Source of the DNA: an uncultured Gemmatimonadaceae bacterium
GTDB lineage: Bacteria > Gemmatimonadota > Gemmatimonadetes > Longimicrobiales > Gaopeijiaceae
DNA: 25,453 nt
Assembly (NCBI GenBank): GCA_964350235.1
Contig: CAYGKI010000002.1
Coordinates: forward strand, 5,974-31,426
Direction of reading: 5' to 3'
Shown here: piece by piece, positions 2,680-15,598 of the stretch
How the letters are laid out: the number at the start of each line of letters is the position of its first letter
Numbering within the stretch: position 1 is the stretch's first letter
Position numbers and translations under genes: made by a program
The notes under the pieces: generated by a model
The model's database searches: none
What the model saw: the letters and a program-made list of their open reading frames with translations, nothing else
Told to the model about the DNA's origin: nothing

Positions 2680-3435
2680 CTAGACCTCGCCGGACGAGAC
2701 CCGCCTGAACACCTCGAGCACGGCCGCCAGCTGCACGGGCGAGGCCTTCACCCACTCGGCCCAGGCCTCGGGTCGATCCTCGGCACGCTCCAGGAGGGCC
2801 TCCACAACGCGCTCGAGGAGATCGAGGACGGCGGGCGCCGCGAGGTTCAGCTTGGGCCAGAGCTCGGCGACCACGTCCAGGGTCTCGCGACTTCGACGAA
2901 AGAGGTCTCCCAGCTCCTGGTCGGTGAAGAACGGTCCCCGGGCGGCGGCGGTCAGGCACCGCCCGAGAAGCTCCACGACATCGTCGTCGAGCTTCCGACG
3001 CAGGATCTTCTCCGACCGGAACTCCAGCACCCGCCCCAGAAAGGTCATCAGCGGATAGACCGCCTCGCCGAGGTGATCCAGGATCACCGGCGGCGCGTCC
3101 CGGGGATAGAGATAGAGTCGGTCCCAGTGCTCGTCCTTCTGGCCGACCTTCTCGGACATCTCCGGCGTGATCCAGTCGTACCCCACCAGGTCCTCGAAGC
3201 GCACGAGATCCAGCCCCCGATCCGCGAGGGCCCGCTGGATACGCCTGGGCGTGACCACCAGCTCGGCACCGTCGGTGGCATGGATCCGTGCCACCGCCCC
3301 GGCGCCCGCCAGGACGTCCTCCTCGCCCAGCGGGCTCCTCGCCACGAGCTCGGCGTTGAGCCGGGGACGCTTGACCTGCGCCTCCTGGAAGATCTCCATG
3401 AGCTGCTCGGTGAGCAGCCAATCCACCATCGTCAT
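2680..3435 (-). CDS. Hypothetical protein (~251 aa)
   Basis: C-terminal part of track ORF 2680..4386 looks like a globular protein from ATG 3435 (MTMVDWLLTEQLMEIF...; alternative ATG 3429) with AGG upstream. The earlier part of the ORF is the antisense shadow of the 3586..4254 gene. Confidence 0.75.
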   Translation of the reverse strand: MTMVDWLLTEQLMEIFQEAQVKRPRLNAELVARSPLGEEDVLAGAGAVARIHATDGAELVVTPRRIQRALADRGLDLVRFEDLVGYDWITPEMSEKVGQKDEHWDRLYLYPRDAPPVILDHLGEAVYPLMTFLGRVLEFRSEKILRRKLDDDVVELLGRCLTAAARGPFFTDQELGDLFRRSRETLDVVAELWPKLNLAAPAVLDLLERVVEALLERAEDRPEAWAEWVKASPVQLAAVLEVFRRVSSGEV

Positions 3436-3585
3436 CCTGCGTTGTCCCCTGGCATGAGGTCGCACACGAAGGTCCCGCCCACCGCCCCCTCTGGACCCTG
3501 GGCCGTCACGAAGGAGCCTTCCCGATCGTAGGAATAGCGGAGGTTCGACACCTCCGGGACGCGGCTCGAGCGGAGGCACGCCGAA

Positions 3586-4254
3586 GTGGGAAAGATAACG
3601 TATCGCCAGGACTTCCCGATCTTCGTGACGGCCCTGGGAACTGCCCTTTCGTCCCTGCTCTGCGTGGCGATCCCAGGTAGCGCCGCGGCCCAGTCCGTGG
3701 ATGTGGACCTGGCCTTGGAGCAGGCCGTCACCACCGTGGATGACATGGGCACACCCACGGGGTACCGCGTGGGGATAGCCATCCCCCGTCTCCTGGGCGC
3801 CGTGGGTCTGGAGGTGAGCTACCGGACGGTCAGGGAGCACCTGGGAGAGCAGGCCCTCCGCTGCGGCTTCGACATGTGCACGCCCGGTCCCTTCGACACG
3901 GCCATGCGTATGCGGGCGGTGGCCATGGGCCTGGGCTGGTCCATGATGCTCAACCCGTTCGTGGAGATGTCCACGGGCGTGACGGCTTCGGTGAACTGGC
4001 AGGACCACGAGTACCGTCCGGGACCGGGCGCCGACCAGGAGCTCGACGCCTTCGGGACCGAGACGACCGGGCCCGACGCGGGGTTGGGCGTCTTCGCGTC
4101 CTGGCGCTTTCCACCCCTCCTCTCCGTCCTCAGTCCCTTCCTGTTCACACGTGCCGAGTGGGTCCGGGCCGGGGCATGCCCTGCCGATGCCGCCTGCTTC
4201 GGTCATCGGTACGTGGGGAGCGCCGGGATCGGGATGTACGCCCGGATTCCCTGA
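3586..4254 (+). CDS. Secreted protein, probably a small outer-membrane beta-barrel
   Basis: Signal-peptide-like segment (...ALGTALSSLLCVAIPGSAAA-QSV), alternating amphipathic strands (GLEVSYR, VEMSTGVTASVNW, LGVFASWRF, GIGMYARIP) and two short Cys-Cys loops. Start uncertain (GTG 3586 or GTG 3625). Confidence 0.7.
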   Translation: MGKITYRQDFPIFVTALGTALSSLLCVAIPGSAAAQSVDVDLALEQAVTTVDDMGTPTGYRVGIAIPRLLGAVGLEVSYRTVREHLGEQALRCGFDMCTPGPFDTAMRMRAVAMGLGWSMMLNPFVEMSTGVTASVNWQDHEYRPGPGADQELDAFGTETTGPDAGLGVFASWRFPPLLSVLSPFLFTRAEWVRAGACPADAACFGHRYVGSAGIGMYARIP

Positions 4255-4262
4255 CACGGATG

Positions 4263-4297
4263 CCGCCCTCCGGCCTCGCCGCGAGGCCGGAGGGCGG
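4263..4297. terminator. Perfect 16-bp GC hairpin between convergent genes; probable bidirectional terminator or 3' stabiliser
   Basis: ccgccctccggcctcg (4263-4278), ccg loop, cgaggccggagggcgg (4282-4297), between the stops at 4254 (+) and 4313 (-). No U-tract on either side. Confidence 0.6.
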
Positions 4298-4312
4298 ACG
4301 GACCCGGTCCGG

Positions 4313-4789
4313 TCAGACCGGCGGAAGCTCCACGTGCACGTGCACGGCGGTGGTGACGAAGTCCGCGTGCCCGCTGCCCACGGCACCGTGCATCAGGCTG
4401 AAGACGGCTTCGGTCTCACCTTCCGCCACCCCGTGGAGGTGCCCTCCGAACTCTCCGGGCGTGTCCTGCTCGAACTCGGCGATGTCCTCGTCCGTGATCT
4501 CCACCTGGAGGTACACGTCGTCGTCGAGCGTGATCTCGTCTCCGTCCTCGTCGACGAACCGGACGTCGATGTGCGCCGTCTCCTCGCCCACCTCCACCTC
4601 CAGCTCACCAGTCCAGCCGGTGTCGGCGTCGTACGAGGCGATGGTCACCCCGTTGAGCACCAGCTCGACGCCGTGGGGATCGGCGTGGTCATCCAGGCCT
4701 ACGGGGTCGTTGCCACACGCGCCGAGCGCGACGGAGCCGGCCAGGGCGAGCGCCACGAGGGGGCTGCGGCCGAAAGCTTTCTTGTTCAT
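4313..4789 (-). CDS. His/acid-rich lipoprotein, probable metal-binding partner of the TonB-dependent receptor
   Basis: ATG 4789 preceded by GAGAGGTG; MNKKAFGRSPLVALALAGSVA-LGAC lipobox; 158 aa with 9 His (DDHADPH, GGHLHG, MHG, GHADF, VHVH) and about one quarter Asp/Glu in the mature part. Confidence 0.85.
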   Translation of the reverse strand: MNKKAFGRSPLVALALAGSVALGACGNDPVGLDDHADPHGVELVLNGVTIASYDADTGWTGELEVEVGEETAHIDVRFVDEDGDEITLDDDVYLQVEITDEDIAEFEQDTPGEFGGHLHGVAEGETEAVFSLMHGAVGSGHADFVTTAVHVHVELPPV

Positions 4790-4867
4790 GGGTCCACCTC
4801 TCGTTGATTGCATGGTTGTCGGTGTGGCCACCTGAGTGGGGTCGCGTCGAGCCCCGGCGGCCGGTGC

Positions 4868-7138
4868 TCAGAACACGACGCGGTAGGTCAGACTCAATCC
4901 ACGGCCCGCCTCGGGCATGATGTCCTTCACCCGGGACAGGTGGTTGCGGTACGTACGGTCGGTCAGGTTGTCCCCGCTCAGCGTCAGGGTGTGGAGCCGG
5001 CCCGCCACCGTGAGGCGCACCCCCGCCGAGGCGTCGAGCACCACGTATCCGGGCGTCTCCGTCTCGAACTCGTCCACGCGATCCTGCCGCGCGGCGAGCA
5101 CCGTCTCCACACGGGCGAACCACGCGGGACGCTCGTACTCGGTGCCCAGACGGGCCTGAAGGGGAGGAATCAGGGGCAGCGGCGTGTCGTCACCGTCGCG
5201 CTGGCCCCTGACGTAGGACGCGGTTCCGTGCAGGGTGACGTCGCCGGCCACGGTCCAGTCGAGCCGGCCCTCGAAGCCGGTGAGTACGGCGTCGTCCCCA
5301 CGGAACTGGTAGATAGGGAGGCGAACCTGGCTCGTATCCCCGGTCTCCGCCGGATAGATGTAGCCCGAGATGGCGTTCCGAAAGCCGGTGAGCTCGGCGG
5401 ACACCCGTTCCCGCTCCAATCGGACGAACACGTCCACACCCGTGCCGACTTCATTGTCCAGATCCGGATTGCCCACCTCGAACGCGTATGCCGCCAGGTG
5501 CGGCCCCTCGGAGTACAGCTCGTTCACGTCCGGGGTGCGGAACGCCCGGGACACGCTCACCCCTGTGATGAGACCCGCCGGGAGGCGGTACAACAGGCCC
5601 AGGGACCCCGACGCCGCGTGGAAGGTGCGGTCGCGGATGTCCCCGATCTCCGAGTCCGGATCGTCCTGGAGCGGGTCCGCTCGGGTCCAGTCGTAGCGCA
5701 GCCCCGCTTCCACCAGCAGCGGATCCAGGTCGATCTCCTCGAACACGTAGCCGGCGAGAGACAACCGGCGCGTGTCGGGGGTGGAGAGCCCTCCGGCGAA
5801 GGTGAACTGCTCCAGAGAGGCCCGGGCTCCCACGGCGCCGTTGGTGAACGGCCCCCAACCTTCGTGGCGGGCCACGACATCCCCGCTGCTGGTCTGGAGC
5901 TTGAAGAAGGTGCCGATGATGTCCGGCGGCTCGATCTCCAGGTGACGGTACCATGTGTAGCTGCCGTCGAGATCCAGGGAGCGGAACGGCCCCCACTGAC
6001 CCTCCACCCGGCCATCCACCTTCGTGGCCATCCGCCTCATCTCCACCCGGACCCCGTCCTCGTGCCCACCCACGAAGCCGCCTGGAATGCCGTAGTCGTT
6101 CTCCATGGCCCTGAACGCCACACCCAGATAGCCCTGATCTCCCACCCACGCCGTTCCGGCTCCGACATTCCACGTGTCGACACCGGTGTTCTCCAGGACA
6201 CCCGCCGGCGTGCGCAGGTCGCCGGCCGTGCGCCCACCGGCCTCCAAACGCACGGGAACGCGGTCGGTGAGCGCTGCGCGGACGTGACCGCTGGCGCTCA
6301 CCGCGTCCATGACGCTCTGTCCCTGCAGCGTCACCGATCCCGTGGGGTGGTGCGGGACGTCCGACGGCACCTCGTCCCGAATGACGTTCACCACGCCGCC
6401 GAGCGCGTTGCTCCCGTACAGGATGGCGGCTGGCCCACGCACGACCTCGATTCGCCGAGCGGATCCCGCGTCCAGGGCGGATGCGTGGTCCGAGCTGGAG
6501 CTGGACATGTCACCGCTCCGCACCCCGTCCTCGAGCATGAGGACCCGGTCACCCGAGAGGCCCCGGATGACCGGACGGGCGGTGGCCGGCCCCATGCTGG
6601 TCACTGCCACGCCGGGCTCGGAGGCCAGCGTGGCCGCCACCGTCCCCTGCAGTCGGCGCTGCAGATCCTGGCCGCGCAGCACGTTCACCGGCCGGAGCGC
6701 TTCGGCGGCCGTCCGCTCGCTCAAGGCCCCCGTCACCACCAACCCTCCCACGTCCAGGGGCGACGCCGTCAGCTCGATGACGACCAAGGCTCCGTCCGCC
6801 GAGGTGGAGACCTGGAGCGTCTCGGTCCCGTACCCGAGGCGCTCCACGCGCAGGGTATGCGTTCCGGCTTCCAGTCCGGATAGGTGGAACGAGCCGTCTC
6901 CGTGTGTGGTGGCGGCAGGCCGCGCACCGACAACCGAGACCAGGACGCCGGCCAGTGGAGCGCCCGTCTCCGCGTCCCTCACCACACCTTCGACCTCACC
7001 GGCGTGCTCCGGTACAGCCTGAGCGGACAGACTGGTCGGCTGGACGGCGGCCGCGAGACCGGCCACCGCCGCGAGGACCCGTAGCTTCCTGATCACGAGT
7101 CCGTGTGCGCGGCTAAGATGCATCATCGTTGACGCCAT
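4868..7138 (-). CDS. TonB-dependent receptor, ZnuD-like (Zn/Ni/Co-type metal uptake), with N-terminal carboxypeptidase-regulatory-like domain
   Basis: Signal peptide; VEGVVRDAETGAPLAGVLV domain; TonB-box-like VVVTG; plug RPVIRGLSGDRVLMLEDG...SDHASALD...RIEVVRGPAAILYGSNALGGVVNVI; GPHLAAYAFEVGNPDL; C-terminal NLTDRTYRNHLS...GRGLSLTYRVVF. Start uncertain (7138, 7126/7123 or GTG 7096). Substrate is inferred. Confidence 0.9.
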   Translation of the reverse strand: MASTMMHLSRAHGLVIRKLRVLAAVAGLAAAVQPTSLSAQAVPEHAGEVEGVVRDAETGAPLAGVLVSVVGARPAATTHGDGSFHLSGLEAGTHTLRVERLGYGTETLQVSTSADGALVVIELTASPLDVGGLVVTGALSERTAAEALRPVNVLRGQDLQRRLQGTVAATLASEPGVAVTSMGPATARPVIRGLSGDRVLMLEDGVRSGDMSSSSSDHASALDAGSARRIEVVRGPAAILYGSNALGGVVNVIRDEVPSDVPHHPTGSVTLQGQSVMDAVSASGHVRAALTDRVPVRLEAGGRTAGDLRTPAGVLENTGVDTWNVGAGTAWVGDQGYLGVAFRAMENDYGIPGGFVGGHEDGVRVEMRRMATKVDGRVEGQWGPFRSLDLDGSYTWYRHLEIEPPDIIGTFFKLQTSSGDVVARHEGWGPFTNGAVGARASLEQFTFAGGLSTPDTRRLSLAGYVFEEIDLDPLLVEAGLRYDWTRADPLQDDPDSEIGDIRDRTFHAASGSLGLLYRLPAGLITGVSVSRAFRTPDVNELYSEGPHLAAYAFEVGNPDLDNEVGTGVDVFVRLERERVSAELTGFRNAISGYIYPAETGDTSQVRLPIYQFRGDDAVLTGFEGRLDWTVAGDVTLHGTASYVRGQRDGDDTPLPLIPPLQARLGTEYERPAWFARVETVLAARQDRVDEFETETPGYVVLDASAGVRLTVAGRLHTLTLSGDNLTDRTYRNHLSRVKDIMPEAGRGLSLTYRVVF

Positions 7139-7278
7139 GGATGAGATGGGAGGTCCGGTGCGGACCCGACGCCCACGGCTGGCGCGGCATCGGGGAACAA
7201 CGGCACTCCTCGGCTGCCGAGGAGTGGCCGGACCTGGGGTGCTAGGGAGATCCCGTGGGCGGAATGCCCACGAAGGCG
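7139..7278 (-). promoter_or_regulatory. Structured 140-nt spacer between the RAPP leader ORF and the receptor
   Basis: Perfect 10-bp hairpin 7204-7226; 7-bp hairpin 7254-7272; long-range inverted repeats 7170-7178/7253-7261 and 7151-7158/7228-7235; C-rich 3' end with no Shine-Dalgarno. Confidence 0.5.
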
Positions 7279-7647
7279 CTACGCGGAGGGAGGTGCCCGC
7301 GGGCCGGAGGAGCCCTGGAGAAGGCGATGGGACCGCCTCAGCTCCGGGACCGAGAAAGGCTCGGCGAGATTGCCGAGAGGATGCCCGAGTGCGACGGTGG
7401 CCGGGACCCGGGCCGGCGTGGCGAGCGCGTTGGCGCGCACCAGCTGACAGAACGCATGGTCGTGGTGGGGCGTGCAGTCGTCACTCCCCGGGGACTCGAC
7501 GTGGACCGGAACCCCGTATCGCTCGACGTCGAGAACGCCGTCCGCCGCCGGCAGGGCAACTGCCCCTGCCAACTGCAGAACAGCCAGCACCAGCACGCCC
7601 AAGCGGCGGCCGAAACCGGGGTCCCCATCGTGTTTGCGAGCGTTCAT
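7279..7647 (-). CDS. DUF2946/CruR-like upstream leader protein with C-terminal RAPP ribosome-arrest motif
   Basis: 122 aa: hydrophobic N-terminal segment (RRLGVLVLAVLQLAGAVALPAA), metal-ligand cluster VHVE...DDCTPHHDHAFCQL, Pro/Ala spacer, and ...SSGPRAPPSA-stop (RAPP codons 7299-7288), directly upstream of a TonB-dependent receptor. Confidence 0.8.
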   Translation of the reverse strand: MNARKHDGDPGFGRRLGVLVLAVLQLAGAVALPAADGVLDVERYGVPVHVESPGSDDCTPHHDHAFCQLVRANALATPARVPATVALGHPLGNLAEPFSVPELRRSHRLLQGSSGPRAPPSA

Positions 7648-7720
7648 GCGCGGCCCTTCGTGACCGTCCGAGTCGCGGGAGTTCGTGGAAGATACCGACC
7701 TTCCCCACGTCGGGTTCCCG

Positions 7721-8743
7721 TCACCGAACCTCGAAGACCGTGTTCTGAGCCAGCTCGAGATACGACAACGAGGCGTTGGCCCGACTCACGTTGCAGGAGT
7801 GGTAGCGGATGTCTCCATCCGCTTCCACCGCGTCGTACGGCTGTGAGGAAGAGAATCCCCCCACGACCATCCCGTCGATGTCACCACGGATACGGTCGTC
7901 GATCCAGCCCGCCAGGACGATCCCGTCCCATGAGAAGCTGGGGTTGGCGTCGAACTCTTCGGTGACGATGAGCACGCCGCGCCCGCTCCAGGACGCGTTG
8001 AAGTGCCGGCTTCCGTTGATGCGGAGCACCGGGCACGAACCGGCGGGCAGGGCTCCGAAGTCGGGCCTCACGTCCTCGAAGTCCACCGGGACCGACGGAT
8101 CGGCGAGGAAGTCCCACCGGATCCCGCTCTGCTCGAGGAAGTCCGCGTGCGTCCCGCTCCAGAGGAGGGCGGGCGGGCTTCCCGTCAGGGTTCCGTCGAC
8201 ATCGATGTCGTCCTCGGCCACGGCGCCGGGAATGCTCGGGGCAGTCCCTCCCGGACAGACTGCACCACCGAAGTCGTCCCCGCTGACCGTGCCGTCCACG
8301 TCCAGCTCCTCCACCCGGACCACCAGCGCGGCGTGGAGCGGCAAGGGGCTCCGGCGCTGGTAGGCGTAGGCCCCGACCACGCGGCGGGCGGGGGTATCGG
8401 GGAGGAGCGGATCCACCACGGAGGCCTCGGATCGAATGAAATACACGTGGGTCGAAGCATCGACCACCGAGACGCGCCGCGCCGTCACCAGCGCCTCCCC
8501 ACCGCCGATGGCATACCGACCCGAGTCGGCCACCACGCCGAGCTGCTCCGAGACGAAGCGCTGGAGCCCGCCACGAGCGATGGCCAGGGCTTCTTCCCCC
8601 TGGGTCGCGTAGCGCGCCATCCGCGTCTCGGCGCTCACCATGAGATAGCCGGCCGTGCCCATCACCGAGATGGCGAAAAGCATCAGGACCACGAGAGCGA
8701 GAACGAATCCGCCCTCCCCGGACGTGGGACGAGGCCCTCTCAC
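7721..8743 (-). CDS. pilX: PilX/GspK-like minor pilin with extended C-terminal domain (~340 aa)
   Basis: GTG 8743 overlaps the pilW stop (GTGA); prepilin site G|FVLALVVLMLFAI lacks Glu5, typical of PilX/GspK; ALAIARGGL helix; C-terminal Gly/Asp/Val-rich repeats. Confidence 0.8.
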   Translation of the reverse strand: MRGPRPTSGEGGFVLALVVLMLFAISVMGTAGYLMVSAETRMARYATQGEEALAIARGGLQRFVSEQLGVVADSGRYAIGGGEALVTARRVSVVDASTHVYFIRSEASVVDPLLPDTPARRVVGAYAYQRRSPLPLHAALVVRVEELDVDGTVSGDDFGGAVCPGGTAPSIPGAVAEDDIDVDGTLTGSPPALLWSGTHADFLEQSGIRWDFLADPSVPVDFEDVRPDFGALPAGSCPVLRINGSRHFNASWSGRGVLIVTEEFDANPSFSWDGIVLAGWIDDRIRGDIDGMVVGGFSSSQPYDAVEADGDIRYHSCNVSRANASLSYLELAQNTVFEVR

Positions 8744-9597
8744 GGCACGTTCCTCAACAGGAGGTTCGTGGCGATTCCGAAGGAGATCTCGTCTTCTGGC
8801 CCCGTCCCGGTGGGTCTTCGGACGTTCATGACCAGGCGCACGCCGTCCACGTTCCCCACCGACCCCGCCGTCACCGTGTCCTGGTAGCTCCCACCCCCGG
8901 TTCGATACCGGAACGCGCTCGTGCTGTCCATGCCGGACGCGAACTCCACGGCATCCCCGCCGTAAGGCTGACGGAAGAGCGCCAGGGTGCCCGGCTCCAG
9001 GGCGGACGGACCGATCCGGAACGTGATCTCCCTGAAGAGCATGAGCACCTCGCCCACGTCGGGGACATCCAGCCCGTACAGGAAGAGCAGCCGCCGGATG
9101 GAATGGAACTCGTCCGCCACGCCGAGCGTGTCCGCTCCGTTCCCCGCGCACCGGCCGGCGCTCCCGGAGCTTCCGCCGTTGAGGAAGCCCCAGGTGGCGC
9201 GCTGGTAGTCCCACGCCCCGGACGCTTCGTCCAGGACCGCCACGCCGGCCACCTCGTCGGTGGCCAGCGCCGCGACGCCACCATCCACATGGACATCCAC
9301 ATTGGGGAGGAAGAATCCGGACCGTCCGCACGCGCTCACCACGGCGACGGGGGAACGCACCGTGAGCGTCCTGGCTCCGGCCACCAGGATGCCGTCCCTC
9401 ATGGACGAGCGCAGCTCACGCGCCACGAGATCCGTGGCGGCCCGGACATTGTCGTGCGCCGCAGCGAGCGCGGCCTGGGTGGCCTGGGCCCGATTCTGGG
9501 CGAGGAACGTCGAGCTCACGAGGACGATGACCAGAGAAGACAGCACCAGCGCGATGAGCGCCTCCACGAGCGTGAACCCTCCGCGGGGGCTTCTCAC
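8740..9597 (-). CDS. pilW: PilW/GspJ-like minor pilin (~285 aa)
   Basis: GTG 9597 overlaps the pilV stop (GTGA); G|FTLVEALIALVLSSLV...DLVARELRS. Confidence 0.85.
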   Translation of the reverse strand: MRSPRGGFTLVEALIALVLSSLVIVLVSSTFLAQNRAQATQAALAAAHDNVRAATDLVARELRSSMRDGILVAGARTLTVRSPVAVVSACGRSGFFLPNVDVHVDGGVAALATDEVAGVAVLDEASGAWDYQRATWGFLNGGSSGSAGRCAGNGADTLGVADEFHSIRRLLFLYGLDVPDVGEVLMLFREITFRIGPSALEPGTLALFRQPYGGDAVEFASGMDSTSAFRYRTGGGSYQDTVTAGSVGNVDGVRLVMNVRRPTGTGPEDEISFGIATNLLLRNVP

Positions 9598-9983
9598 CAG
9601 ACCTCCGAGACGTAGGAGGTGACCTGGTAGGAAGGCCCTTCGGACCCTCTGGGCCGTAGCGTGACGTCGACGCGCATGAGCAGCGGAGAGAGACGGGTGA
9701 GCGAGACGGTCCGATCGTAGTCGAGCCCCGAGACCACCACCACATCCACGTCGGAGCCCGCCACCAGCGAAGAGAAGGGCTCGGCCCCCAGGGAATCCAG
9801 CCGTTCCGCCGCCCTCAGCGCCAGGGCGGAGGAGATGCCGGCGTAGCGCATCTGCGTGCTGGTCGCGGTGCTGAGGCGGATCACCATGAGCACGCCCACG
9901 GCGAACACGACGAACGCAGCCACCACTTCGATGAGCGTGAAGCCGCCCCGGCGGACACGGTCCGAGCGAGCGATGCGGATCAC
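9594..9983 (-). CDS. pilV: PilV/GspI-like minor pilin (129 aa)
   Basis: GTG 9983 overlaps the fimT stop; G|FTLIEVVAAFVVFAVGVL...AAERLDSL. Confidence 0.85.
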   Translation of the reverse strand: MIRIARSDRVRRGGFTLIEVVAAFVVFAVGVLMVIRLSTATSTQMRYAGISSALALRAAERLDSLGAEPFSSLVAGSDVDVVVVSGLDYDRTVSLTRLSPLLMRVDVTLRPRGSEGPSYQVTSYVSEVW

Positions 9984-10447
9984 GGTGCCTGGACGCGCGA
10001 CGAGCCGAGGGCGTTGAACGACACCCGGTACTCGGTGGACCCGGCCACGAAGCGAGCCACACCCAGCGTTCCGGAGGCTCCGGAAAGGTCGGCGAACCCC
10101 CGGCGGTCGAAGAGGACCGTATCACCCGCGAGCTCGAGAGCGATCTCCGAGAGCTCCAGCCCGTCCGAGCTGGAGAACCGTCTTTGCACCAGCTCCGTGG
10201 CCCCGTCCAGCGTGGCAACCTCGTACCGGAGGCTACCCTCGAAGAAGCGCAGGACCACGGGTGTCTGGCTCCGTACGGCGAGCTGCCTCGCCTGGGTGAG
10301 GTCCTGGGCGAACACCTGCGCCGCCTGGCGGGCGGCGCTCCTGCTGAAGTACTGCGCCAAAGTGACCGCCGCGAAGCCCATGGTGACCGCGCTCAACGTC
10401 AGCACGGCCAACAGCTCGATGAGCGTGAACCCCCTGGCCCGCGTCAT
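9980..10447 (-). CDS. fimT: FimT/FimU/GspH-like minor pilin (~155 aa)
   Basis: ATG 10447 overlaps the gdh stop (ATGA) with GAGGTG upstream; MTRARG|FTLIELLAVL...AQDLTQARQLAV...VLFDRRGF...VSFNALG. Confidence 0.85.
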   Translation of the reverse strand: MTRARGFTLIELLAVLTLSAVTMGFAAVTLAQYFSRSAARQAAQVFAQDLTQARQLAVRSQTPVVLRFFEGSLRYEVATLDGATELVQRRFSSSDGLELSEIALELAGDTVLFDRRGFADLSGASGTLGVARFVAGSTEYRVSFNALGSSRVQAP

Positions 10448-13400
10448 GCACCTCGATCCGCCAGGGCCGCCAACTCGCGGATCACCACGGACACGGCCGC
10501 GAAGCCCACGGTGCCCTCGGCCTTCAGGTCCGTGATCAGGTTCCGGTACCGTTCGATCTCCCGGGCCCTCATCCTCAGCAAGCGCTCGGTGGCCTGCTCG
10601 ATCCCCTGGTCGTCCTCCGCCCGCCGGAGCACCGAGGCGATGAGCTTCCGGTGGGCCCGGGCAAGGTCCTCGGCGAGGGCCTGGGCGGCCCGCTGCTCCC
10701 AGTGGTCCCCACCCGCCGTGGCGAAGGTCGTCCGTCGGAGCCACGGGACATCGAAGAGATCGGAGATTCGATAGAAGACCTGCGCCGCGGCCACCGGGTC
10801 GGCCTCCGTCTCGCGCGCAATCTCCAGGATCTCCAGGAGCTGGTCGAGGAAGCGCAGCGTGATCAATCGACGGGAGAACAGGTCGTCCGCGCCCACCTTA
10901 CGGATCTCCTGGACCCGGGCTTCGAAGAGCGTCCTGTCCTCGCCCTGGACGAAGGACTCGAAGTGCTCTCTCAGGACCGCCAGTCCGGGTACGCTCCGCT
11001 CCACCACCGTCGCTGGCGACACGTCCGGATCCACGTTCTGGAGGACCCAGCGGGTCGTGCGCTCCAGCACCCTGGCGAGCCCCAGAATCCACCGGTACGC
11101 CACCCTGAGGTTAAGTCGATCGTGCTGCTCGCCGATCTGCGCCATGAGCGCCCGGTGGTCGGCGAGGCGAGACGCCACGAGCCAGGCCCGCGCCACGTCC
11201 TCCACCCGGGAGCCGGTGTCCCGGGCCACCCGGGTCACGAAGGTGGCGCCCATGATGTCCACCAGATCGTTGGTGAGCTGACTGGCGATGATCTCCCGCC
11301 GCAGGCGATGTCCCTCCAGGTGTGATCGGCCGGCGGCGTTGATGGCCGATGACGGGAAGTACCCCAGGAGATAGCTCTCCGTGACCGGGTCGTCCGGGAG
11401 CCCTCCGGCCAGAAGGCGGGTCTTCAGAGCGAGCTTGGCATACGCGAGGAGGACGCAGAGCTCCGGCCTGACCAGCGACTGCCCACGCTCCCTCCGCTCG
11501 CCCAGGACATCCAGCGAGGGAAGTCCTTCCGAAAGCCTGTCCAGCTCCCCCGTCTTCTCCAGGGCGAACATGAACTCGCGGAAATCGTCGAAGCCCTCCT
11601 TGGCCCGCTGCTCGTCCAACGAGACGGCCAGGCTCTGGGAGCGGTTGTCGTCCAACACCAGGTCGGCCACACCCTCGGTGAGGTCCTCCAGGAGCCGGTT
11701 CCGGTCGTCCTGGGACATGGCGCCCCCGACCACGGAAGGCGCGAGGAGGATCTTCAGATTCACCTCATGGTCCGACATGTCGACGCCGGCCGAGTTGTCC
11801 AGGGCGTCGGTGTTGGCACGCCCTCCCCGCAGGGCGTAGGCGATCCTGGCCTTCTGGGTCAATCCCAGGTTTCCACCTTCGCCCAACACGGCGCATCGGA
11901 GCTCGGAGGCGTCCACGCGCACGGCGTCGTTGGAAGGGTCGCCGGCGTCGGCGTGGGTCTCACCATCTTCTTTGACGTACGTGCCGATGCCGCCGTTCCA
12001 CAGCAGCTCGACGGGAGCCTTGAGTACCAGCCGGATGAGCGACTCCCCGTCCATGGTCCCGGGCTCATCCTCTCCCACCCCCAGGGCGGTCCGCGCCTCC
12101 GGCGTCAGCTCCACCTCCTTGGCTCCCCGGGGGACGATCATCCCGCCTTCGCTGAGCAGCGAGCGATCGTAGTCGTCCCAGCTGCTCCGCCCCAGTCCGA
12201 AGAGCCTCCGGCGCTCCGCGAAGGAGGTGGCGGGATCGGGGTCGGGGTCGATGAACACGTGCCGATGATCGAAGGCCGCCACGAGCCGAATCTGCTCGGA
12301 AAGGAGCATGCCGTTGCCGAAGACGTCCCCGCTCATGTCGCCGATCCCGGCCACCGTGAAGGGCTGAGACTGGATGTCCTTGCCCTTCTCCCGGAAATGC
12401 CGCTTCACGCACTCCCAGGCACCCCGGGCGGTGATGCCGACCTCCTTGTGGTCGTATCCGTTGGAGCCGCCCGAAGCGAAGGCGTCGTCCAGCCAGAATC
12501 CGTACTCCGCCGATACCGCGTTGGCCAGGTCGGAGAAGGTGGCGGTGCCCTTGTCCGCCGCCACGACCAGATATGGATCCGGTGGATCCCAGCAGACCAC
12601 CGCTTCGGAGATCCCGGGCCGTCCGTCCGCCAGGTTGTCGGTGATGTCCAGAAGGCCACGGATCAGCGTGCGATACTGGCGGCGTCCCTCCTCCCAGCGC
12701 TCCTCGGCGTCCGCTGGAACCACCCGGGTGATGAACCCGCCCTTGGATCCACCGGGCACGATGACCGCGTTCTTGACCACCTGGGTGCGGACGAGGCCCA
12801 GCACCTCGGTCCGGAAGTCGTCGGGGCGGTCGCTCCACCGGATGCCGCCCCGGGCGACACGGGCGCCGCGAAGATGGATGCCCTCCATGCGGGACGAGTG
12901 CACCCACACCTCGTAGAGCAGGCGTGTGGTCCTCCCGAAGTCCAGGCTCTCGCTGGCGAACTTGAACGAGATGTACGGCACCCCTCCGGATCGCGCCGAA
13001 GGGTCGGCGGCCCCGGTGCGGTAGTAGTTCGTGCGCACCGTCGCAGCGATGAGCTGCTCCAGCCTCCGAAGCGCCCGATCGTCGGAAAGGAGGTCCACCC
13101 CCTTGAGGGAGGCATGGAAGGCGCTCCGGATGTCGGTGGCCGCCCGTTCCCGTTCCTTTGTGGACATCCTGCGGTCGGGGTCGAACCGCGTCTGGAACAG
13201 CTCGAAGAGCTCTCCGGCGATCCCCGGGTGCGAGACCAGCGCCGATGGCAGCGCCAGCCGGCTGGGCACCGCCCTCATCTGGAAGGCGAACCCGGAGTAG
13301 GCGCGGAGCACATCCACTTCGCGCCACCGCAATCCGGCGGTGAGCACCAGTCCGTTGAGGCGGTCGCTCACGGCGTCTCCATCGCGCACGGCGAGGATGG

Positions 13401-15357
13401 TCTCGGAGAGCAGGCCCCCCCTCCGCTCCACGTCGATGCGCTGGCCGGCGGCGTCGAGCACGGCGAACACGTAGACCGTCGCGTCCGGATCCCCGTCTCC
13501 CGCCACCACGAACGGCTTCACCGCCAACACCTTGAGGCCGCAATCCTCGAGGACGGGCATGAAGTCCGAGAGCACCAGGTGCTCGCCACGGAGGAAGACC
13601 TTGAGCTCGGTGACGTCCTCGGCCCCCGCCACCCGGATTCCGGGTCCACGATTCGTGAACGATATGGACGTCGCCTGCCCGTCGGCCTTCATGGCTTCCA
13701 GTATCGCGATGTCGGTGGCGGCGACCTGCGGATCCGTGGCGGCCTGATACTCCCGACTCATGCGGGTCGCGTAGATCCGGGCCAGGGCCCTCGCCTCGTC
13801 GGAGCCGTGGGTCTGCTCCAGCTCTTCCTGCACCCGGTCCTGCCAGGTGCGGATGAGGCGGGCGACGGCCTGCTCCAGCTCCTGCGTATCCACCTGGGCG
13901 GCACGGTCCGGTGGGGCACCCATATGGAAGTGGAGCCTCGCCTGGTCGCCGGATCCCAGCGCGAGGTGGTAGTTGAGCACGTCACCGTCGAAGGCGCGGA
14001 CCAGCTCCCGCTCGATCTCCTTCCGGACCGCCCCGGAGAACCGCTCCTTGGGCAGGATCACCATCACCGAGAGACCCCGTTGCAGGGGGTCCTCACGGAG
14101 CGCCACCCTGACGTCGTCGGTGTTGTACGCCGTGAGCACCGTGCGGATGTCCGCACCGATCTTCTCCGCCGAAGTGAGGAACAACTCCTCCTTCGGCATG
14201 GAGTTGAAGATCGTGATGATCTCCTTGAAGTCGTGGGAGCCGGGACGCACCCCCGAGTCTTCCAGGATGTCCGCGAGCTTGCGCCGGAGAATGGGGATGT
14301 TCTCCGCGGCCTCCGAGTAGGCCCGCGAGGTGAACAGCCCCAGGAACCGGTGCTCACCCACGGCACGGCCGGAGGCGTCGAGCTTCTTGACGCCGATGTA
14401 GTCCATGCGTGCCCGTCGATGGACCGTGGACTCCGCGTTGGCCTTGCTGATGATCAGGACCGGCCCTTCCTCGGCGAGTCTGCGCATGCCCTCGTCCAGG
14501 CGGGACAGCCGGACGCCGGCGGCGAAGCGTGACTCCGCCTCGTTGCGGAGCACGCCCAGCCCCGATCCCGGCTCGACGATGACGGTCCGATCGTCACCGA
14601 CCTCGTCGGGCACGAAGTCGTATGCCCGGTATCCCAGGAAGACGAAGCCGCCGTCCCGAAGCCACTCGAGGAACGCGCTGATCTCCGACAGCTCGCCGGC
14701 GAGCTCCTCGTTGCCTGCCGCGTGCGCGCCAAGATCCGCGAGGACGCGATCCACGGCGCCCAACATGGGCCCGAAATCGTCGGTGGCGCGCACCACGTCC
14801 TGCAGCCGCCGCGCAAGCTCGGCCCGGAGCTCGTCCAGTCGAGCCTCGTCCGTGACCTTGTCCACCTCGCAGTGGACCAGCGACTCCTTCGTCCCGGTGT
14901 CGGTGCCCGGACCGATGGACACCACGCTCCCACGCTCGTCGTGCTCCACGTCGAGGATGGGGTAGACCATCCACGTGACGGGGAGCTCCTGGGCGTGCAG
15001 GAACTCGCGGATGGTGTCGACGATGAAAGGTCGCTCGCTGACGTTGGTCCGGATGACCGTGTTCGGGCAGCCCCACCCCTCGTCTTCCGTGGAGGGGTTG
15101 ATGACCTGGACGTCCACCCGGTTGGCGCTGGAGGCCCTGAGGAAGCGGTAGGCGCCCAGGGTCATGCCGATGAGGTCCGGCACCGCCCGACCCCAGAGGA
15201 GATCGTCGGGGGCGCGCCGCAGGAACGCCCGGGCGAACCCGAGGGCCACGTCGGACTCGGGGGCCGGTACGGAGGACCGGATCCCGTCGCAGACCAGCTC
15301 GACGGTCTCTGCGGAATCGCGGAGTCGGCGGCGCGCCGTTCCCGTGGTATCGCTCAT
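10444..15357 (-). CDS. gdh: Large NAD-specific glutamate dehydrogenase (~1640 aa, GdhB/GDH2 type)
   Basis: NVSERPFIVD and RRARMDYIGVK N-terminal regulatory region; RFLGLFTS; EGIHLRGARVARGGIRWSDRPDDFRTEVLGL; GGSKGGF; YLVVAADKGTATFSD; YDHKEVGITARGAW; GIGDMSGDVFGNGML; LLWNGGIGTYVK; NTDALDNSAGVDMSDHEVNLKI. Start ATG 15357 preferred; GTG 15393 possible. Confidence 0.97.
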   Translation of the reverse strand: MSDTTGTARRRLRDSAETVELVCDGIRSSVPAPESDVALGFARAFLRRAPDDLLWGRAVPDLIGMTLGAYRFLRASSANRVDVQVINPSTEDEGWGCPNTVIRTNVSERPFIVDTIREFLHAQELPVTWMVYPILDVEHDERGSVVSIGPGTDTGTKESLVHCEVDKVTDEARLDELRAELARRLQDVVRATDDFGPMLGAVDRVLADLGAHAAGNEELAGELSEISAFLEWLRDGGFVFLGYRAYDFVPDEVGDDRTVIVEPGSGLGVLRNEAESRFAAGVRLSRLDEGMRRLAEEGPVLIISKANAESTVHRRARMDYIGVKKLDASGRAVGEHRFLGLFTSRAYSEAAENIPILRRKLADILEDSGVRPGSHDFKEIITIFNSMPKEELFLTSAEKIGADIRTVLTAYNTDDVRVALREDPLQRGLSVMVILPKERFSGAVRKEIERELVRAFDGDVLNYHLALGSGDQARLHFHMGAPPDRAAQVDTQELEQAVARLIRTWQDRVQEELEQTHGSDEARALARIYATRMSREYQAATDPQVAATDIAILEAMKADGQATSISFTNRGPGIRVAGAEDVTELKVFLRGEHLVLSDFMPVLEDCGLKVLAVKPFVVAGDGDPDATVYVFAVLDAAGQRIDVERRGGLLSETILAVRDGDAVSDRLNGLVLTAGLRWREVDVLRAYSGFAFQMRAVPSRLALPSALVSHPGIAGELFELFQTRFDPDRRMSTKERERAATDIRSAFHASLKGVDLLSDDRALRRLEQLIAATVRTNYYRTGAADPSARSGGVPYISFKFASESLDFGRTTRLLYEVWVHSSRMEGIHLRGARVARGGIRWSDRPDDFRTEVLGLVRTQVVKNAVIVPGGSKGGFITRVVPADAEERWEEGRRQYRTLIRGLLDITDNLADGRPGISEAVVCWDPPDPYLVVAADKGTATFSDLANAVSAEYGFWLDDAFASGGSNGYDHKEVGITARGAWECVKRHFREKGKDIQSQPFTVAGIGDMSGDVFGNGMLLSEQIRLVAAFDHRHVFIDPDPDPATSFAERRRLFGLGRSSWDDYDRSLLSEGGMIVPRGAKEVELTPEARTALGVGEDEPGTMDGESLIRLVLKAPVELLWNGGIGTYVKEDGETHADAGDPSNDAVRVDASELRCAVLGEGGNLGLTQKARIAYALRGGRANTDALDNSAGVDMSDHEVNLKILLAPSVVGGAMSQDDRNRLLEDLTEGVADLVLDDNRSQSLAVSLDEQRAKEGFDDFREFMFALEKTGELDRLSEGLPSLDVLGERRERGQSLVRPELCVLLAYAKLALKTRLLAGGLPDDPVTESYLLGYFPSSAINAAGRSHLEGHRLRREIIASQLTNDLVDIMGATFVTRVARDTGSRVEDVARAWLVASRLADHRALMAQIGEQHDRLNLRVAYRWILGLARVLERTTRWVLQNVDPDVSPATVVERSVPGLAVLREHFESFVQGEDRTLFEARVQEIRKVGADDLFSRRLITLRFLDQLLEILEIARETEADPVAAAQVFYRISDLFDVPWLRRTTFATAGGDHWEQRAAQALAEDLARAHRKLIASVLRRAEDDQGIEQATERLLRMRAREIERYRNLITDLKAEGTVGFAAVSVVIRELAALADRGA

Positions 15358-15598
15358 GGATTCAACAGGTCGCTGCGAGGGAAGCTCTGCCACACGACCG
15401 CCGCCACCCCATCACGCGCGGAGCCATGATCTCAGATCGTTGGACGCATGCGACCTGTCCAGGGGGCCCGGGGAGCGTCGGAGCGAGGATGTGGAGATGG
15501 AACAACGTTATCTGAGAACCGAGCGGCAGGAAACCCGGAAGACGGAGGGGGTCCCGAGATCGAATTCCCCGCCTACGGGGATTCATCTACCTTGCTTC

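What the first reader, a model, noticed from the sequence alone, without database searches (positions are those of the whole stretch)
4313..7647. Three-gene metal-uptake module apparently governed by a nascent-peptide sensor rather than Zur/Fur
Seen: RAPP leader, 140-nt structured spacer, ZnuD-like receptor and His lipoprotein, all co-oriented. I found no AT-rich Fur/Zur-like palindrome in 7648-7720 or 7139-7278. Known: ZnuD-type receptors are typically Zur-repressed, and the characterised DUF2946 leader CruR of Bordetella controls a copper-related receptor post-transcriptionally. Inference: an arrest-peptide circuit controlling a non-copper (Zn/Ni/Co) importer, which I do not know to be described.
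Basis: partly seen in the sequence, partly recalled or inferred. Interest (0 to 1): 0.75.

Follow-up and report, generated by a model that had tools for sequence, protein, structure and literature searches.

The report
Metal-sensing ribosome-stalling leader before zinc-type receptor
A small conserved gene ending in the ribosome-stalling motif RAPP sits in front of a zinc-type outer-membrane receptor and its lipoprotein in a Gemmatimonadota genome; it is a divergent cousin of the copper-sensing leader peptides CruR and CutF and most likely switches metal uptake, probably of zinc, on when the metal is scarce.

Summary
On the minus strand lie a 122-codon leader (7647-7279) ending GPRAPPSA-stop, a 140-nt structured spacer, a ZnuD-like TonB-dependent receptor (7138-4868) and an acidic His-rich lipoprotein (4789-4313). 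No Fur, Zur or NikR consensus lies nearby.

The leader is a regulatory arrest peptide of the published CruR/CutF (DUF2946) kind. Its RAPP tail and Cys/His sensor are invariant and its linker is free to vary. The sensor-to-RAPP distance is exactly 49 residues in 28 of 28 homologues, and 45 in relatives, as in CruR. A C-rich, G-poor tract and a long spacer mirror the Rho-dependent CruR locus.

The metal is probably zinc, not copper:
- All four ZnuD zinc ligands are kept in the receptor.
- The receptor has no cysteine.
- Paralogous RAPP leaders, one in this genome, head porin-like/ZnuA/ZnuB operons in at least 14 genera.

The leader family occurs in 83 of 201 Gemmatimonadota genomes searched, usually before this receptor. 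Zur control is not excluded: two FUR-family genes are present. A conserved ECF-like promoter precedes the leader.

This is a new variant of a known kind. I found no paper linking such leaders to zinc. Earlier AI notes of this scan describe similar leaders before ZnuD-like receptors on other DNA. Nothing here is tested experimentally.

The parts
7693..7718 (-). Promoter-like motif GGAAC (7718-7714), 17 nt, GGTA (7696-7693). It is ECF-sigma-like and lies in the 73-nt gap after the upstream pseudopilin-like gene.
   Evidence: GGAAC-N15/16-[GT]GTA is present at the equivalent place in 9 of 9 genus-level loci, whose upstream DNA is otherwise diverged. No sigma-70 consensus was found. Function is inferred.
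7279..7647 (-). Leader ORF, 122 aa. It has an N-terminal hydrophobic helix, a Cys/His sensor, a variable linker and a RAPP arrest motif.
   Evidence: (28 homologues), and (1200 representative clusters at E <= 0.001). The AF2 model gives helix 10-44 confident and the rest disordered.
7447..7542 (-). Sensor segment D36...C67, with D36, D40, H49, E51, C58, HHDH 61-64 and C67. The second Cys of the family's CxxC is Val70 here.
   Evidence: These columns are invariant or nearly invariant. The wider family consensus is C-x3-HDH-x2-C-x2-C-R.
7288..7299 (-). RAPP codons R117-A118-P119-P120. The predicted arrest has P119 in the P site and P120 in the A site.
   Evidence: The motif is invariant in all homologues. 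The arrest position is taken by analogy with the CruR toeprint in PMC12992588.
7110..7490 (-). C-rich, G-poor tract ('C>G bubble'), a candidate Rho-utilisation region. It spans the leader's 3' half and the spacer.
   Evidence: C minus G is +12.3% over 380 nt. Only 1.2% of such windows in the 25-kb window reach 13%. It recurs in 13 of 14 orthologous loci. Rho is present in the genome.
7139..7278 (-). 140-nt structured spacer. Hairpin 1 is 7271-7255. A 10-bp hairpin is 7226-7204. A third hairpin is about 7194-7166. An enclosing stem pairs 7235-7228 with 7158-7151.
   Evidence: Hairpin 1, which starts 5-8 nt after the stop codon, is kept with different sequences in L001-L009. Spacer lengths are about 138-169 nt across the phylum.
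4868..7138 (-). ZnuD-like TonB-dependent receptor, 756 aa. The candidate metal ligands are D217, H218, E401 and H547.
   Evidence: The ligands are conserved in 7 of 7 orthologues. The protein has no Cys.
4313..4789 (-). Acidic His-rich lipoprotein, 158 aa, with an Ig-like beta-sandwich. It is a candidate receptor partner or metal-capture protein.
   Evidence: The AF2 model has pLDDT 89. The best AFDB cluster is named a DUF4625 protein, TM 0.71. The mature chain has 9 His, 34 Asp+Glu and 1 Lys+Arg.

Best explanation
The leader is a cis-acting metal sensor, not a working protein.

Proposed mechanism:
1. The operon is transcribed from its own promoter.
2. The ribosome translating the leader arrests with Pro119/Pro120 of RAPP in the P and A sites. 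At that point the Cys/His sensor, held a fixed 49 residues upstream, has just left the exit tunnel and probably the Sec translocon.
3. When metal is scarce, the arrested and queued ribosomes cover the C-rich 3' half of the leader. Rho cannot load, RNA polymerase reads through the 140-nt spacer, and the ZnuD-like receptor and its lipoprotein are made.
4. When metal is plentiful, it binds the nascent sensor. The resulting folding force releases the arrest, the ribosome terminates, Rho loads and stops transcription in the spacer, and uptake is shut off.

The metal is most likely zinc.

Shown here: the anatomy, its conservation, the fixed ruler, the C>G tract, the presence of Rho, the zinc-type ligands and the zinc-type paralogous operons.

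Inferred by analogy with CruR: the arrest itself, its relief by metal, the Rho read-out and the identity of the metal.
For: The leader is a regulatory peptide of the CruR kind:
- The RAPP tail and sensor are invariant and the linker is variable.
- Cys67 to RAPP is exactly 49 residues in 28 of 28 sequences.
- Relatives with CxxC have 45 residues from the second Cys. ZnuA-operon leaders have 45 in 13 of 14. CruR has 45 (PMC9426467).
- Relatives score just under the DUF2946 cut-off over the full model: 22.6 and 21.4 against 23.7 bits. 16 of 148 family representatives hit DUF2946 and no other family recurs.
- The leader is the first gene, followed by a long spacer, in 26 of 30 loci across the phylum. 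CruR has 162 nt.
- A C>G tract runs across the leader's 3' half and the spacer, as at cruR. Rho is present.
- RAPP arrest of CruR has been demonstrated (PMC12992588).

The metal is zinc-type:
- The nearest solved receptor is ZnuD.
- Its ligands D99, H100, E340 and H499 (PMC4557270) align to D217, H218, E401 and H547. These are kept in 7 of 7 orthologues, and one orthologue has a His/Asp-rich loop.
- The receptor has no Cys, so an OprC-type copper site is impossible.
- CrtA entries 9RVQ and 9RVX are not among the PDB matches.
- Paralogous leaders head porin-like/ZnuA/ABC-3 operons. Their best matches are the zinc proteins AztC and AztB.
Against: - There is no experiment and no RNA data. Only DNA runs hold this sequence.
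- The window's leader itself has no DUF2946 match and lacks CxxC.
- The C-richness partly reflects Pro/Ala codons of the linker.
- The spacer is strongly structured, whereas rut sites are unstructured. The spacer may instead hold pause or termination sites, or a translational switch.
- Cys/His motifs also bind Cu, Ni and Co.
- ZnuD-family scores are far below the curated cut-offs.
- The lipoprotein has a conserved Met-His pair, and one fold neighbour is a NosL fusion.
- FUR-family regulators exist in the genome, so Zur could still be the main switch.
Confidence: 0.6

Rival explanations
1. Same arrest-peptide sensor, but with a translational read-out of the CutF or SecM type. The position of the ribosome, stalled at RAPP or terminating, remodels the spacer RNA and opens or closes the receptor's start region, without Rho.
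For: - The spacer is strongly structured (z = -3.83).
- A hairpin 5-8 nt after the stop codon is conserved with changed sequences. It would be melted by a terminating ribosome but not by one arrested at RAPP.
- CutF works this way (PMC9973294; bioRxiv 10.1101/2025.02.05.636593).
Against: - No recognisable Shine-Dalgarno sequence precedes the receptor start in the window or its relatives.
- A stall site 150 nt from the start is far for direct unmasking. PMC9973294 argues that stem-loop unfolding needs short spacers.
- Apart from hairpin 1, the spacer structure is not alignable among relatives.
Confidence: 0.25
2. A copper system. The leader is simply a CruR orthologue sensing Cu, and the receptor with its lipoprotein imports copper.
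For: - The leader is related to DUF2946, whose two studied members sense Cu (PMC9426467, PMC9973294).
- The wider family consensus keeps CxxC.
- The lipoprotein has a conserved Met-His pair, and a NosL-fused fold neighbour exists.
Against: - The receptor is of the ZnuD type with all four zinc ligands and no Cys.
- It is not of the CrtA or OprC type (PMC12914433).
- No copper genes (PCuAC, Sco, YcnI, CopC, PepSY_TM) lie in any of the loci inspected.
- Sister leaders head ZnuA/ZnuB-type importers.
Confidence: 0.15
3. The small protein is a stable membrane-anchored or periplasmic metal-binding protein, such as a chaperone or receptor accessory. The RAPP tail has no regulatory role, and regulation is purely transcriptional through an ECF sigma factor or Zur.
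For: - A conserved ECF-like promoter motif precedes the leader.
- FUR paralogues are present.
- The N-terminal helix and conserved ligand residues could form a real metal site.
Against: - The invariant RAPP lies exactly two or three codons before the stop.
- An unconserved linker of strictly fixed length is the signature of a ruler, not of a folded domain.
- The model is disordered beyond residue 76.
- CruR and CutF are undetectable as proteins (PMC9426467, PMC9973294).
Confidence: 0.07
4. The leader monitors Sec export or periplasmic thiol oxidation (a C58-C67 disulfide) rather than a metal.
For: - RAPP peptides were first found as monitors of Sec and YidC.
- RAPP uORFs also precede DsbA and thioredoxin genes (PMC12992588).
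- The window clade has two Cys.
Against: - The downstream genes are metal importers, not Sec or Dsb components.
- Many family members have a single Cys, for example those with GHSHLLCQ.
- His62 is invariant but Cys58 is not.
Confidence: 0.04

Closest known systems
CruR (Bp2923, DUF2946/PF11162) with CrtA/BfrG of Bordetella pertussis (PMC9426467, PMC12992588, PMC12914433)
   Same: - A small first gene with a hydrophobic N-terminus, a Cys-containing metal motif and RAPP 2-3 codons before the stop.
- A fixed spacing of about 45 residues between motif and RAPP.
- A long spacer: 140 nt here and 162 nt in CruR.
- A C>G tract from the leader's 3' half into the spacer.
- A TonB-dependent importer downstream, with the logic of an uptake system.
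   Different: - The window leader gives no Pfam match.
- Its sensor is C-x3-HHDH-x2-C-x2-V instead of CxxC.
- The phylum is Gemmatimonadota, not Proteobacteria.
- The receptor is of the ZnuD type, not the CrtA type.
- The third gene is an Ig-like lipoprotein, not PepSY_TM.
- The metal is probably Zn, not Cu.
CutF-CutO of Rhodobacter capsulatus and CutF-like proteins (PMC9973294; bioRxiv 10.1101/2025.02.05.636593)
   Same: - The same superfamily, with an exported nascent-chain metal sensor and a C-terminal proline stall.
- That survey already suggests non-copper (Ni/Co) members with His-only motifs.
   Different: - In CutF the metal induces stalling, which melts a short stem-loop over the next gene's ribosome-binding site and turns on a detoxification enzyme.
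- Here an importer lies 140 nt away, which calls for the opposite logic.
ZnuD of Neisseria meningitidis (PMC2895646, PMC4557270; 4RDR)
   Same: - It is the nearest solved receptor (E = 1.5e-34).
- All four high-affinity zinc ligands align to identical residues.
   Different: - The window receptor scores only 216 bits against the 950 cut-off.
- It has an extra N-terminal CarboxypepD_reg domain.
- It has no His/Asp-rich loop, although one orthologue does.
- ZnuD is repressed by Zur at a recognisable box, and none is found here.
RAPP/RAGP arrest peptides ApdA, ApdP and SecM (PMC7897499, PMC10951233, PMC10987492)
   Same: The same C-terminal arrest motif and an N-terminal export signal. Release is thought to be driven by force on the nascent chain.
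   Different: Those peptides monitor Sec or YidC activity and regulate the localisation machinery. They have no metal-ligand motif.
DUF4625 lipoprotein BT1419, a predicted 'lid' of the non-SusC receptor BT1420 (bioRxiv 10.1101/2023.03.17.533168)
   Same: - A small lipoprotein encoded next to a TonB-dependent receptor.
- The best AFDB fold cluster for the window's lipoprotein is named DUF4625 (TM 0.71).
   Different: - There is no Pfam match by sequence.
- The window protein is extremely acidic and His-rich.
- Binding to the receptor is untested.

Membership tests
DUF2946 / CruR-CutF-like arrest-peptide leaders | Match to Pfam PF11162 above its gathering score (23.7 bits) | tested here: not met
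   The window leader has no match, and a six-frame scan of its own genome gives none at E <= 10. Same-order relatives score 22.6 and 21.4 bits over model positions 6/7-117. 16 of 148 family representatives match at E <= 0.01. In the phylum, 4 of 151 genomes are over the cut-off.
DUF2946 / CruR-CutF-like arrest-peptide leaders | C-terminal RAPP (or a proline-rich stall motif) within a few codons of the stop | tested here: met
   GPRAPPSA-stop. R117, A118, P119 and P120 are invariant in 28 homologues, and R, P and P are invariant in 148 representatives.
DUF2946 / CruR-CutF-like arrest-peptide leaders | Conserved CxxC metal motif | tested here: not met
   The window has C67-Q-L-V70, with an extra C58 and HHDH. 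The wider family consensus does have C-x2-C. Many members have a single Cys.
DUF2946 / CruR-CutF-like arrest-peptide leaders | Conserved spacing of about 45 residues between the metal motif and RAPP | tested here: met
   49 residues from C67 in 28 of 28 sequences, and 46 from position 70. Relatives with CxxC have 45 from the second Cys. ZnuA-operon leaders have 45 in 13 of 14.
DUF2946 / CruR-CutF-like arrest-peptide leaders | N-terminal Sec signal or membrane anchor | tested here: inconclusive
   The N-terminus has an Arg-rich region followed by a 20-residue hydrophobic stretch. The AF2 model gives helix 10-44 with pLDDT above 90. No signal-peptide predictor was available.
DUF2946 / CruR-CutF-like arrest-peptide leaders | First gene of a metal-homeostasis operon, acting in cis on the next gene | tested here: met
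   Synteny only. The leader is followed by the receptor in 13 of 14 loci of the order and in 26 of 30 loci of the phylum. Cis action itself is not testable here.
DUF2946 / CruR-CutF-like arrest-peptide leaders | Demonstrated ribosome arrest and metal-dependent change of arrest | not testable with these tools
   This needs in vitro translation, toeprinting or reporters. No RNA runs hold the locus.
ZnuD zinc-piracy receptors (NF038289) | Score above the curated cut-off (950 bits) | tested here: not met
   The score is 215.9 bits. It is the best NCBIfam match but far below the cut-off.
ZnuD zinc-piracy receptors (NF038289) | High-affinity site formed by Asp99, His100, Glu340 and His499 | tested here: met
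   The phmmer alignment to 4RDR places D217, H218, E401 and H547 at these positions, after the 14-residue tag offset of the chain. They are kept in 7 of 7 orthologues.
ZnuD zinc-piracy receptors (NF038289) | His/Asp-rich surface loop | tested here: not met
   The loop is absent from the window receptor. It is present as an insertion in the orthologue of locus L028.
ZnuD zinc-piracy receptors (NF038289) | Zur box in the promoter | tested here: inconclusive
   No model-organism Zur, Fur or NikR consensus lies in 7100-7800. The phylum's Zur box is unknown, and two FUR paralogues are present.
CrtA / OprC copper receptors | Sequence similarity to CrtA (9RVQ, 9RVX), or the OprC CxxxM-HxM site | tested here: not met
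   CrtA entries are not among the 61 PDB sequences matched at E <= 10. I could not verify that they are in that copy of the PDB. OprC matches only at 1e-15, over the C-terminal barrel. The receptor has no Cys.

The most novel reading that the evidence does not exclude
Gemmatimonadota use a zinc-sensing nascent peptide as a main switch for zinc import. This would be a ribosome-arrest leader with a His/Cys sensor held at a fixed distance from RAPP. One version would control the outer-membrane ZnuD-like receptor with its lipoprotein, and a paralogous version would control a porin-like/ZnuA/ZnuB importer. That would make it the first zinc-responsive translational-arrest regulon, working beside or instead of Zur.
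Probability: 0.4. Interest if true: 0.75.

Novelty: new variant of a known kind. Interest (0 to 1): 0.55.

Why it matters
Arrest-peptide metal sensing has been shown only for copper, in CruR and CutF. Two linked zinc-type operon families headed by such leaders would extend the principle to zinc. Their sensors grade from CxxC to His-rich single-Cys motifs.

The sequence series is also a natural resource for asking two questions: how a disordered nascent chain achieves metal selectivity, and how metal binding is turned into force on the ribosome. The strictly fixed 45-49-residue ruler bears directly on the second.

It also flags an unannotated regulatory gene present in about 40% of the Gemmatimonadota genomes searched. 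Most of these copies fall below Pfam's DUF2946 threshold.

Tried and rejected
- Complex prediction of receptor (128-756) with the mature lipoprotein gave no verdict. It is no evidence either way.
- The PDB fold search of the lipoprotein gave only generic Ig-like domains, TM at most 0.53.
- The AF2 model of the leader shows an N-terminal helix and disorder, with no metal-site geometry.
- Rfam gave no family in 6900-7900, so no riboswitch is recognised.
- The sigma-70 and terminator scan found nothing.
- Pattern scans found few extra loci: 5 in genome contigs and 2 in metagenome contigs.
- Context look-ups of four representative family members returned contigs too short to use.
- RNAalifold on the post-stop hairpin gave weak energy (-3.08) because MAFFT misaligns shifted hairpins. 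An alignment-free fold per locus was used instead.
- The rest of the spacer could not be aligned among relatives.

Full report
**Anatomy.** The window is G000:C2:5974-31426 of a 75%-complete Gemmatimonadota MAG. Close relatives are labelled Gemmatimonadota or Longimicrobiales. On the minus strand lie the following features.
- A pseudopilin-like gene ends at 7721.
- A 73-nt gap follows.
- The 122-codon leader runs 7647-7279 and is preceded by GAAGGG.
- A 140-nt spacer follows.
- A 756-aa TonB-dependent receptor runs 7138-4868.
- A 78-nt gap follows.
- A lipoprotein gene runs 4789-4313.
- The next gene, 3586-4254, converges, so the unit has three genes.
- The same order is found in long contigs of relatives.

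**The leader is a conserved gene whose conservation pattern is regulatory.**
- 28 homologues, mostly exactly 122 aa, share an invariant sensor: D36, D40, H49, E51, S52, C58, H62, D63, H64, C67, Q68 and R71.
- They also share an invariant tail, G112 and P116-R-A-P-P120. Residues about 80-110 are unconserved.
- The number of residues between C67 and R117 is 49 in 28 of 28 sequences.
- More distant leaders from the same order keep H62, C67, R117, P119 and P120, with spacings of 44-49.
- Those with C-x2-C have 45 residues between the second Cys and RAPP. This is the value reported and shown to matter for CruR (PMC9426467).
- A profile search of 1.84 billion representatives finds 1200 clusters at E <= 0.001.
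- The consensus of the best 147 is ...HVE...C-x3-HDH-x2-C-x2-C-R...GPRAPP-x-A. The window clade is therefore a variant in which the last Cys became Val.
- The AF2 model shows a confident helix at 10-44 and disorder after residue 76, as described for CruR.

**Relation to DUF2946.**
- The window leader has no Pfam or NCBIfam match.
- Same-order relatives score 22.6 and 21.4 bits over the whole DUF2946 model, whose cut-off is 23.7.
- 16 of 148 representatives match it at E <= 0.01, and no other family recurs.
- I read this as a divergent branch of the CruR/CutF superfamily that lies mostly below Pfam's threshold.

**Distribution and synteny.**
- The leader profile matches 83 of 201 Gemmatimonadota genomes sampled, in 43 of 99 genera.
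- In 26 of the 30 best loci an orthologue of this receptor (44-61% identical) follows, sometimes with the lipoprotein gene between.
- Spacer lengths are typically 138-169 nt.
- The lipoprotein follows the receptor in the wider order.

**Spacer and likely read-out.**
- The spacer folds far better than shuffles, z = -3.83. The 291-nt stretch 7400-7110 gives z = -3.04.
- A hairpin starting 5-8 nt after the stop codon is present with different sequences in L001-L009. Beyond it the spacers do not align.
- On the coding strand a C-rich, G-poor tract runs from about 7490 to 7110 (+12.3%). It recurs in the leader's 3' half in 13 of 14 orthologous loci, while the receptor gene has the opposite skew.
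- At cruR such a 'C>G bubble' marks the rut site of a Rho-dependent terminator that acts in a 162-nt spacer (PMC9426467). Rho is encoded in this genome.
- No clear Shine-Dalgarno sequence precedes the receptor start. This speaks against simple unmasking of a ribosome-binding site.
- I therefore favour CruR-like logic: arrest gives read-through, and metal-triggered release gives Rho termination.
- About a quarter of the probability goes to a translational or RNA-switch read-out. In that case hairpin 1 would distinguish an arrested ribosome from a terminating one.

**Which metal.**
- The receptor's nearest solved relative is ZnuD, at 1.5e-34. The next are PhuR at 1.7e-20 and OprC at 1e-15.
- The four ligands of ZnuD's buried zinc site (PMC4557270) align to D217, H218, E401 and H547. 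They are kept in all seven orthologues compared. One orthologue carries a His/Asp-rich loop like that of ZnuD.
- The receptor has no cysteine, which excludes an OprC-type copper site.
- CrtA, the receptor controlled by CruR, forms a separate cluster (PMC12914433). Its entries do not appear among the PDB matches.
- A second family of RAPP/RGPP leaders has the motif HDH-x2-C and spacing 45 in 13 of 14.
- One copy is in this genome on contig C131. These leaders precede a 444-460-aa protein in 14 of 14 untruncated loci, and a ZnuA-family binding protein follows it. An ABC-3 permease follows that in the loci that reach far enough.
- The 444-460-aa protein is porin-like by language-model features only. 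The binding protein and permease are closest to the zinc proteins AztC and AztB, although below cut-off.
- In the printed alignment the third ligand position of the binding protein is His. From my own knowledge this is typical of zinc-specific members and not of manganese-specific ones.
- No copper-handling genes were seen in any locus inspected.
- Zinc is thus the best-supported cargo and signal, at about 55-60%. Cys/His chemistry alone cannot exclude Cu, Ni or Co.

**Zur or Fur.**
- No model-organism Zur, Fur or NikR box lies near either intergenic region.
- The genome has two FUR-family genes and relatives have 2-4. The phylum's operator is unknown.
- GGAAC-N15/16-[GT]GTA is conserved upstream of the leader in 9 of 9 genus-level loci. 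It looks like an ECF-sigma promoter.
- 'Rather than Zur/Fur' is therefore unproven. Layered control is possible.

**Lipoprotein.**
- The family has 473 or more members, typically 60-70% identical, and no Pfam domain.
- Conserved residues are H28, M126, H127, H134 and D136, and many members have VHVH-type C-terminal tails.
- The model (pLDDT 89) is an Ig-like sandwich.
- Its best AFDB neighbours are a cluster named DUF4625 (TM 0.71), unnamed proteins and a NosL fusion.
- DUF4625 lipoproteins are predicted lids of non-SusC receptors in Bacteroides (bioRxiv 10.1101/2023.03.17.533168).
- The acidic residues right after the lipid-modified Cys recall the Bacteroidota surface-export signal. This is from my memory and is only a lead.
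- A role as metal-capturing partner of the receptor is inferred. The complex prediction gave no verdict.

**Novelty.**
- The kind is published. CruR and CutF are the prototypes.
- RAPP uORFs are reported as enriched before TonB-dependent receptors across Gram-negative phyla (PMC12992588).
- A Ni/Co suggestion exists for His-only CutF-like leaders (PMC9973294).
- Zinc is not mentioned in connection with such leaders in any of the four papers I searched for it, and a search for RAPP motif with zinc found nothing relevant.
- Earlier AI notes of this scan describe similar leaders before ZnuD-like receptors in other genomes. Those are unchecked leads, not support.
- I class this as a new variant of a known kind.

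Noticed in passing
Own genome contig C131 (locus L022: leader 2596-2931 +, 444-aa gene 3018-4352 +); also L024, L051-L066: A paralogous RAPP/RGPP leader has the motif HDH-x2-C with exactly 45 residues to RAPP. It heads a second operon type: a 444-460-aa protein with no Pfam match (porin-like only by language-model features), then a ZnuA-family binding protein, then an ABC-3 permease. The 444-460-aa protein was found in 21 of 61 relatives, and the leader precedes it in 14 of 14 untruncated loci.
   Followed up: yes
window 7693-7718 (-): GGAAC-N15/16-[GT]GTA is conserved upstream of the leader in 9 of 9 genus-level loci. It looks like an ECF-sigma promoter. The sigma factor and its signal are unknown.
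   Followed up: partly
L028:7994-10423 (-): The orthologous receptor in another family of the order carries an inserted His/Asp/Glu-rich loop of about 23 residues. It lies before the GGHE motif and is reminiscent of ZnuD's surface zinc-capture loop.
   Followed up: no
L098 (G188:C1:2237835-2241149) and the matches G188:C1:2239335-2239649 and G188:C1:2243016-2243345: One complete genome has two leader copies 3.7 kb apart. The order there is receptor, lipoprotein, leader, receptor, which suggests tandem duplicated modules.
   Followed up: no
L025/L106 (G024:C29) and L092, L102: In some genomes the lipoprotein gene lies between the leader and the receptor, instead of after the receptor.
   Followed up: partly
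window 7721-10744 (-) and 10444-15393 (-): Upstream of the module lie pseudopilin-like genes (PilX_N, N_methyl and GspH hits in relatives) and a 1649-aa NAD-glutamate dehydrogenase. They are syntenic in the genus and seem unrelated to the metal module.
   Followed up: no
window 4313-4789 (-), residues after the lipobox Cys: The mature lipoprotein starts C-G-N-D-P...DDH, or C-S/D-D-D-P in relatives. This acidic stretch resembles the Bacteroidota lipoprotein surface-export signal, which I recall from memory. If valid, the protein would be surface-exposed.
   Followed up: no
L023 (G057:C4), leader 10160-10507 (-): An RGPP-ending leader with the motif C-x3-H-x-DDC-x2-C precedes a different receptor, only 25% identical to the window's. 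The leader family is therefore not tied to one receptor subfamily.
   Followed up: partly
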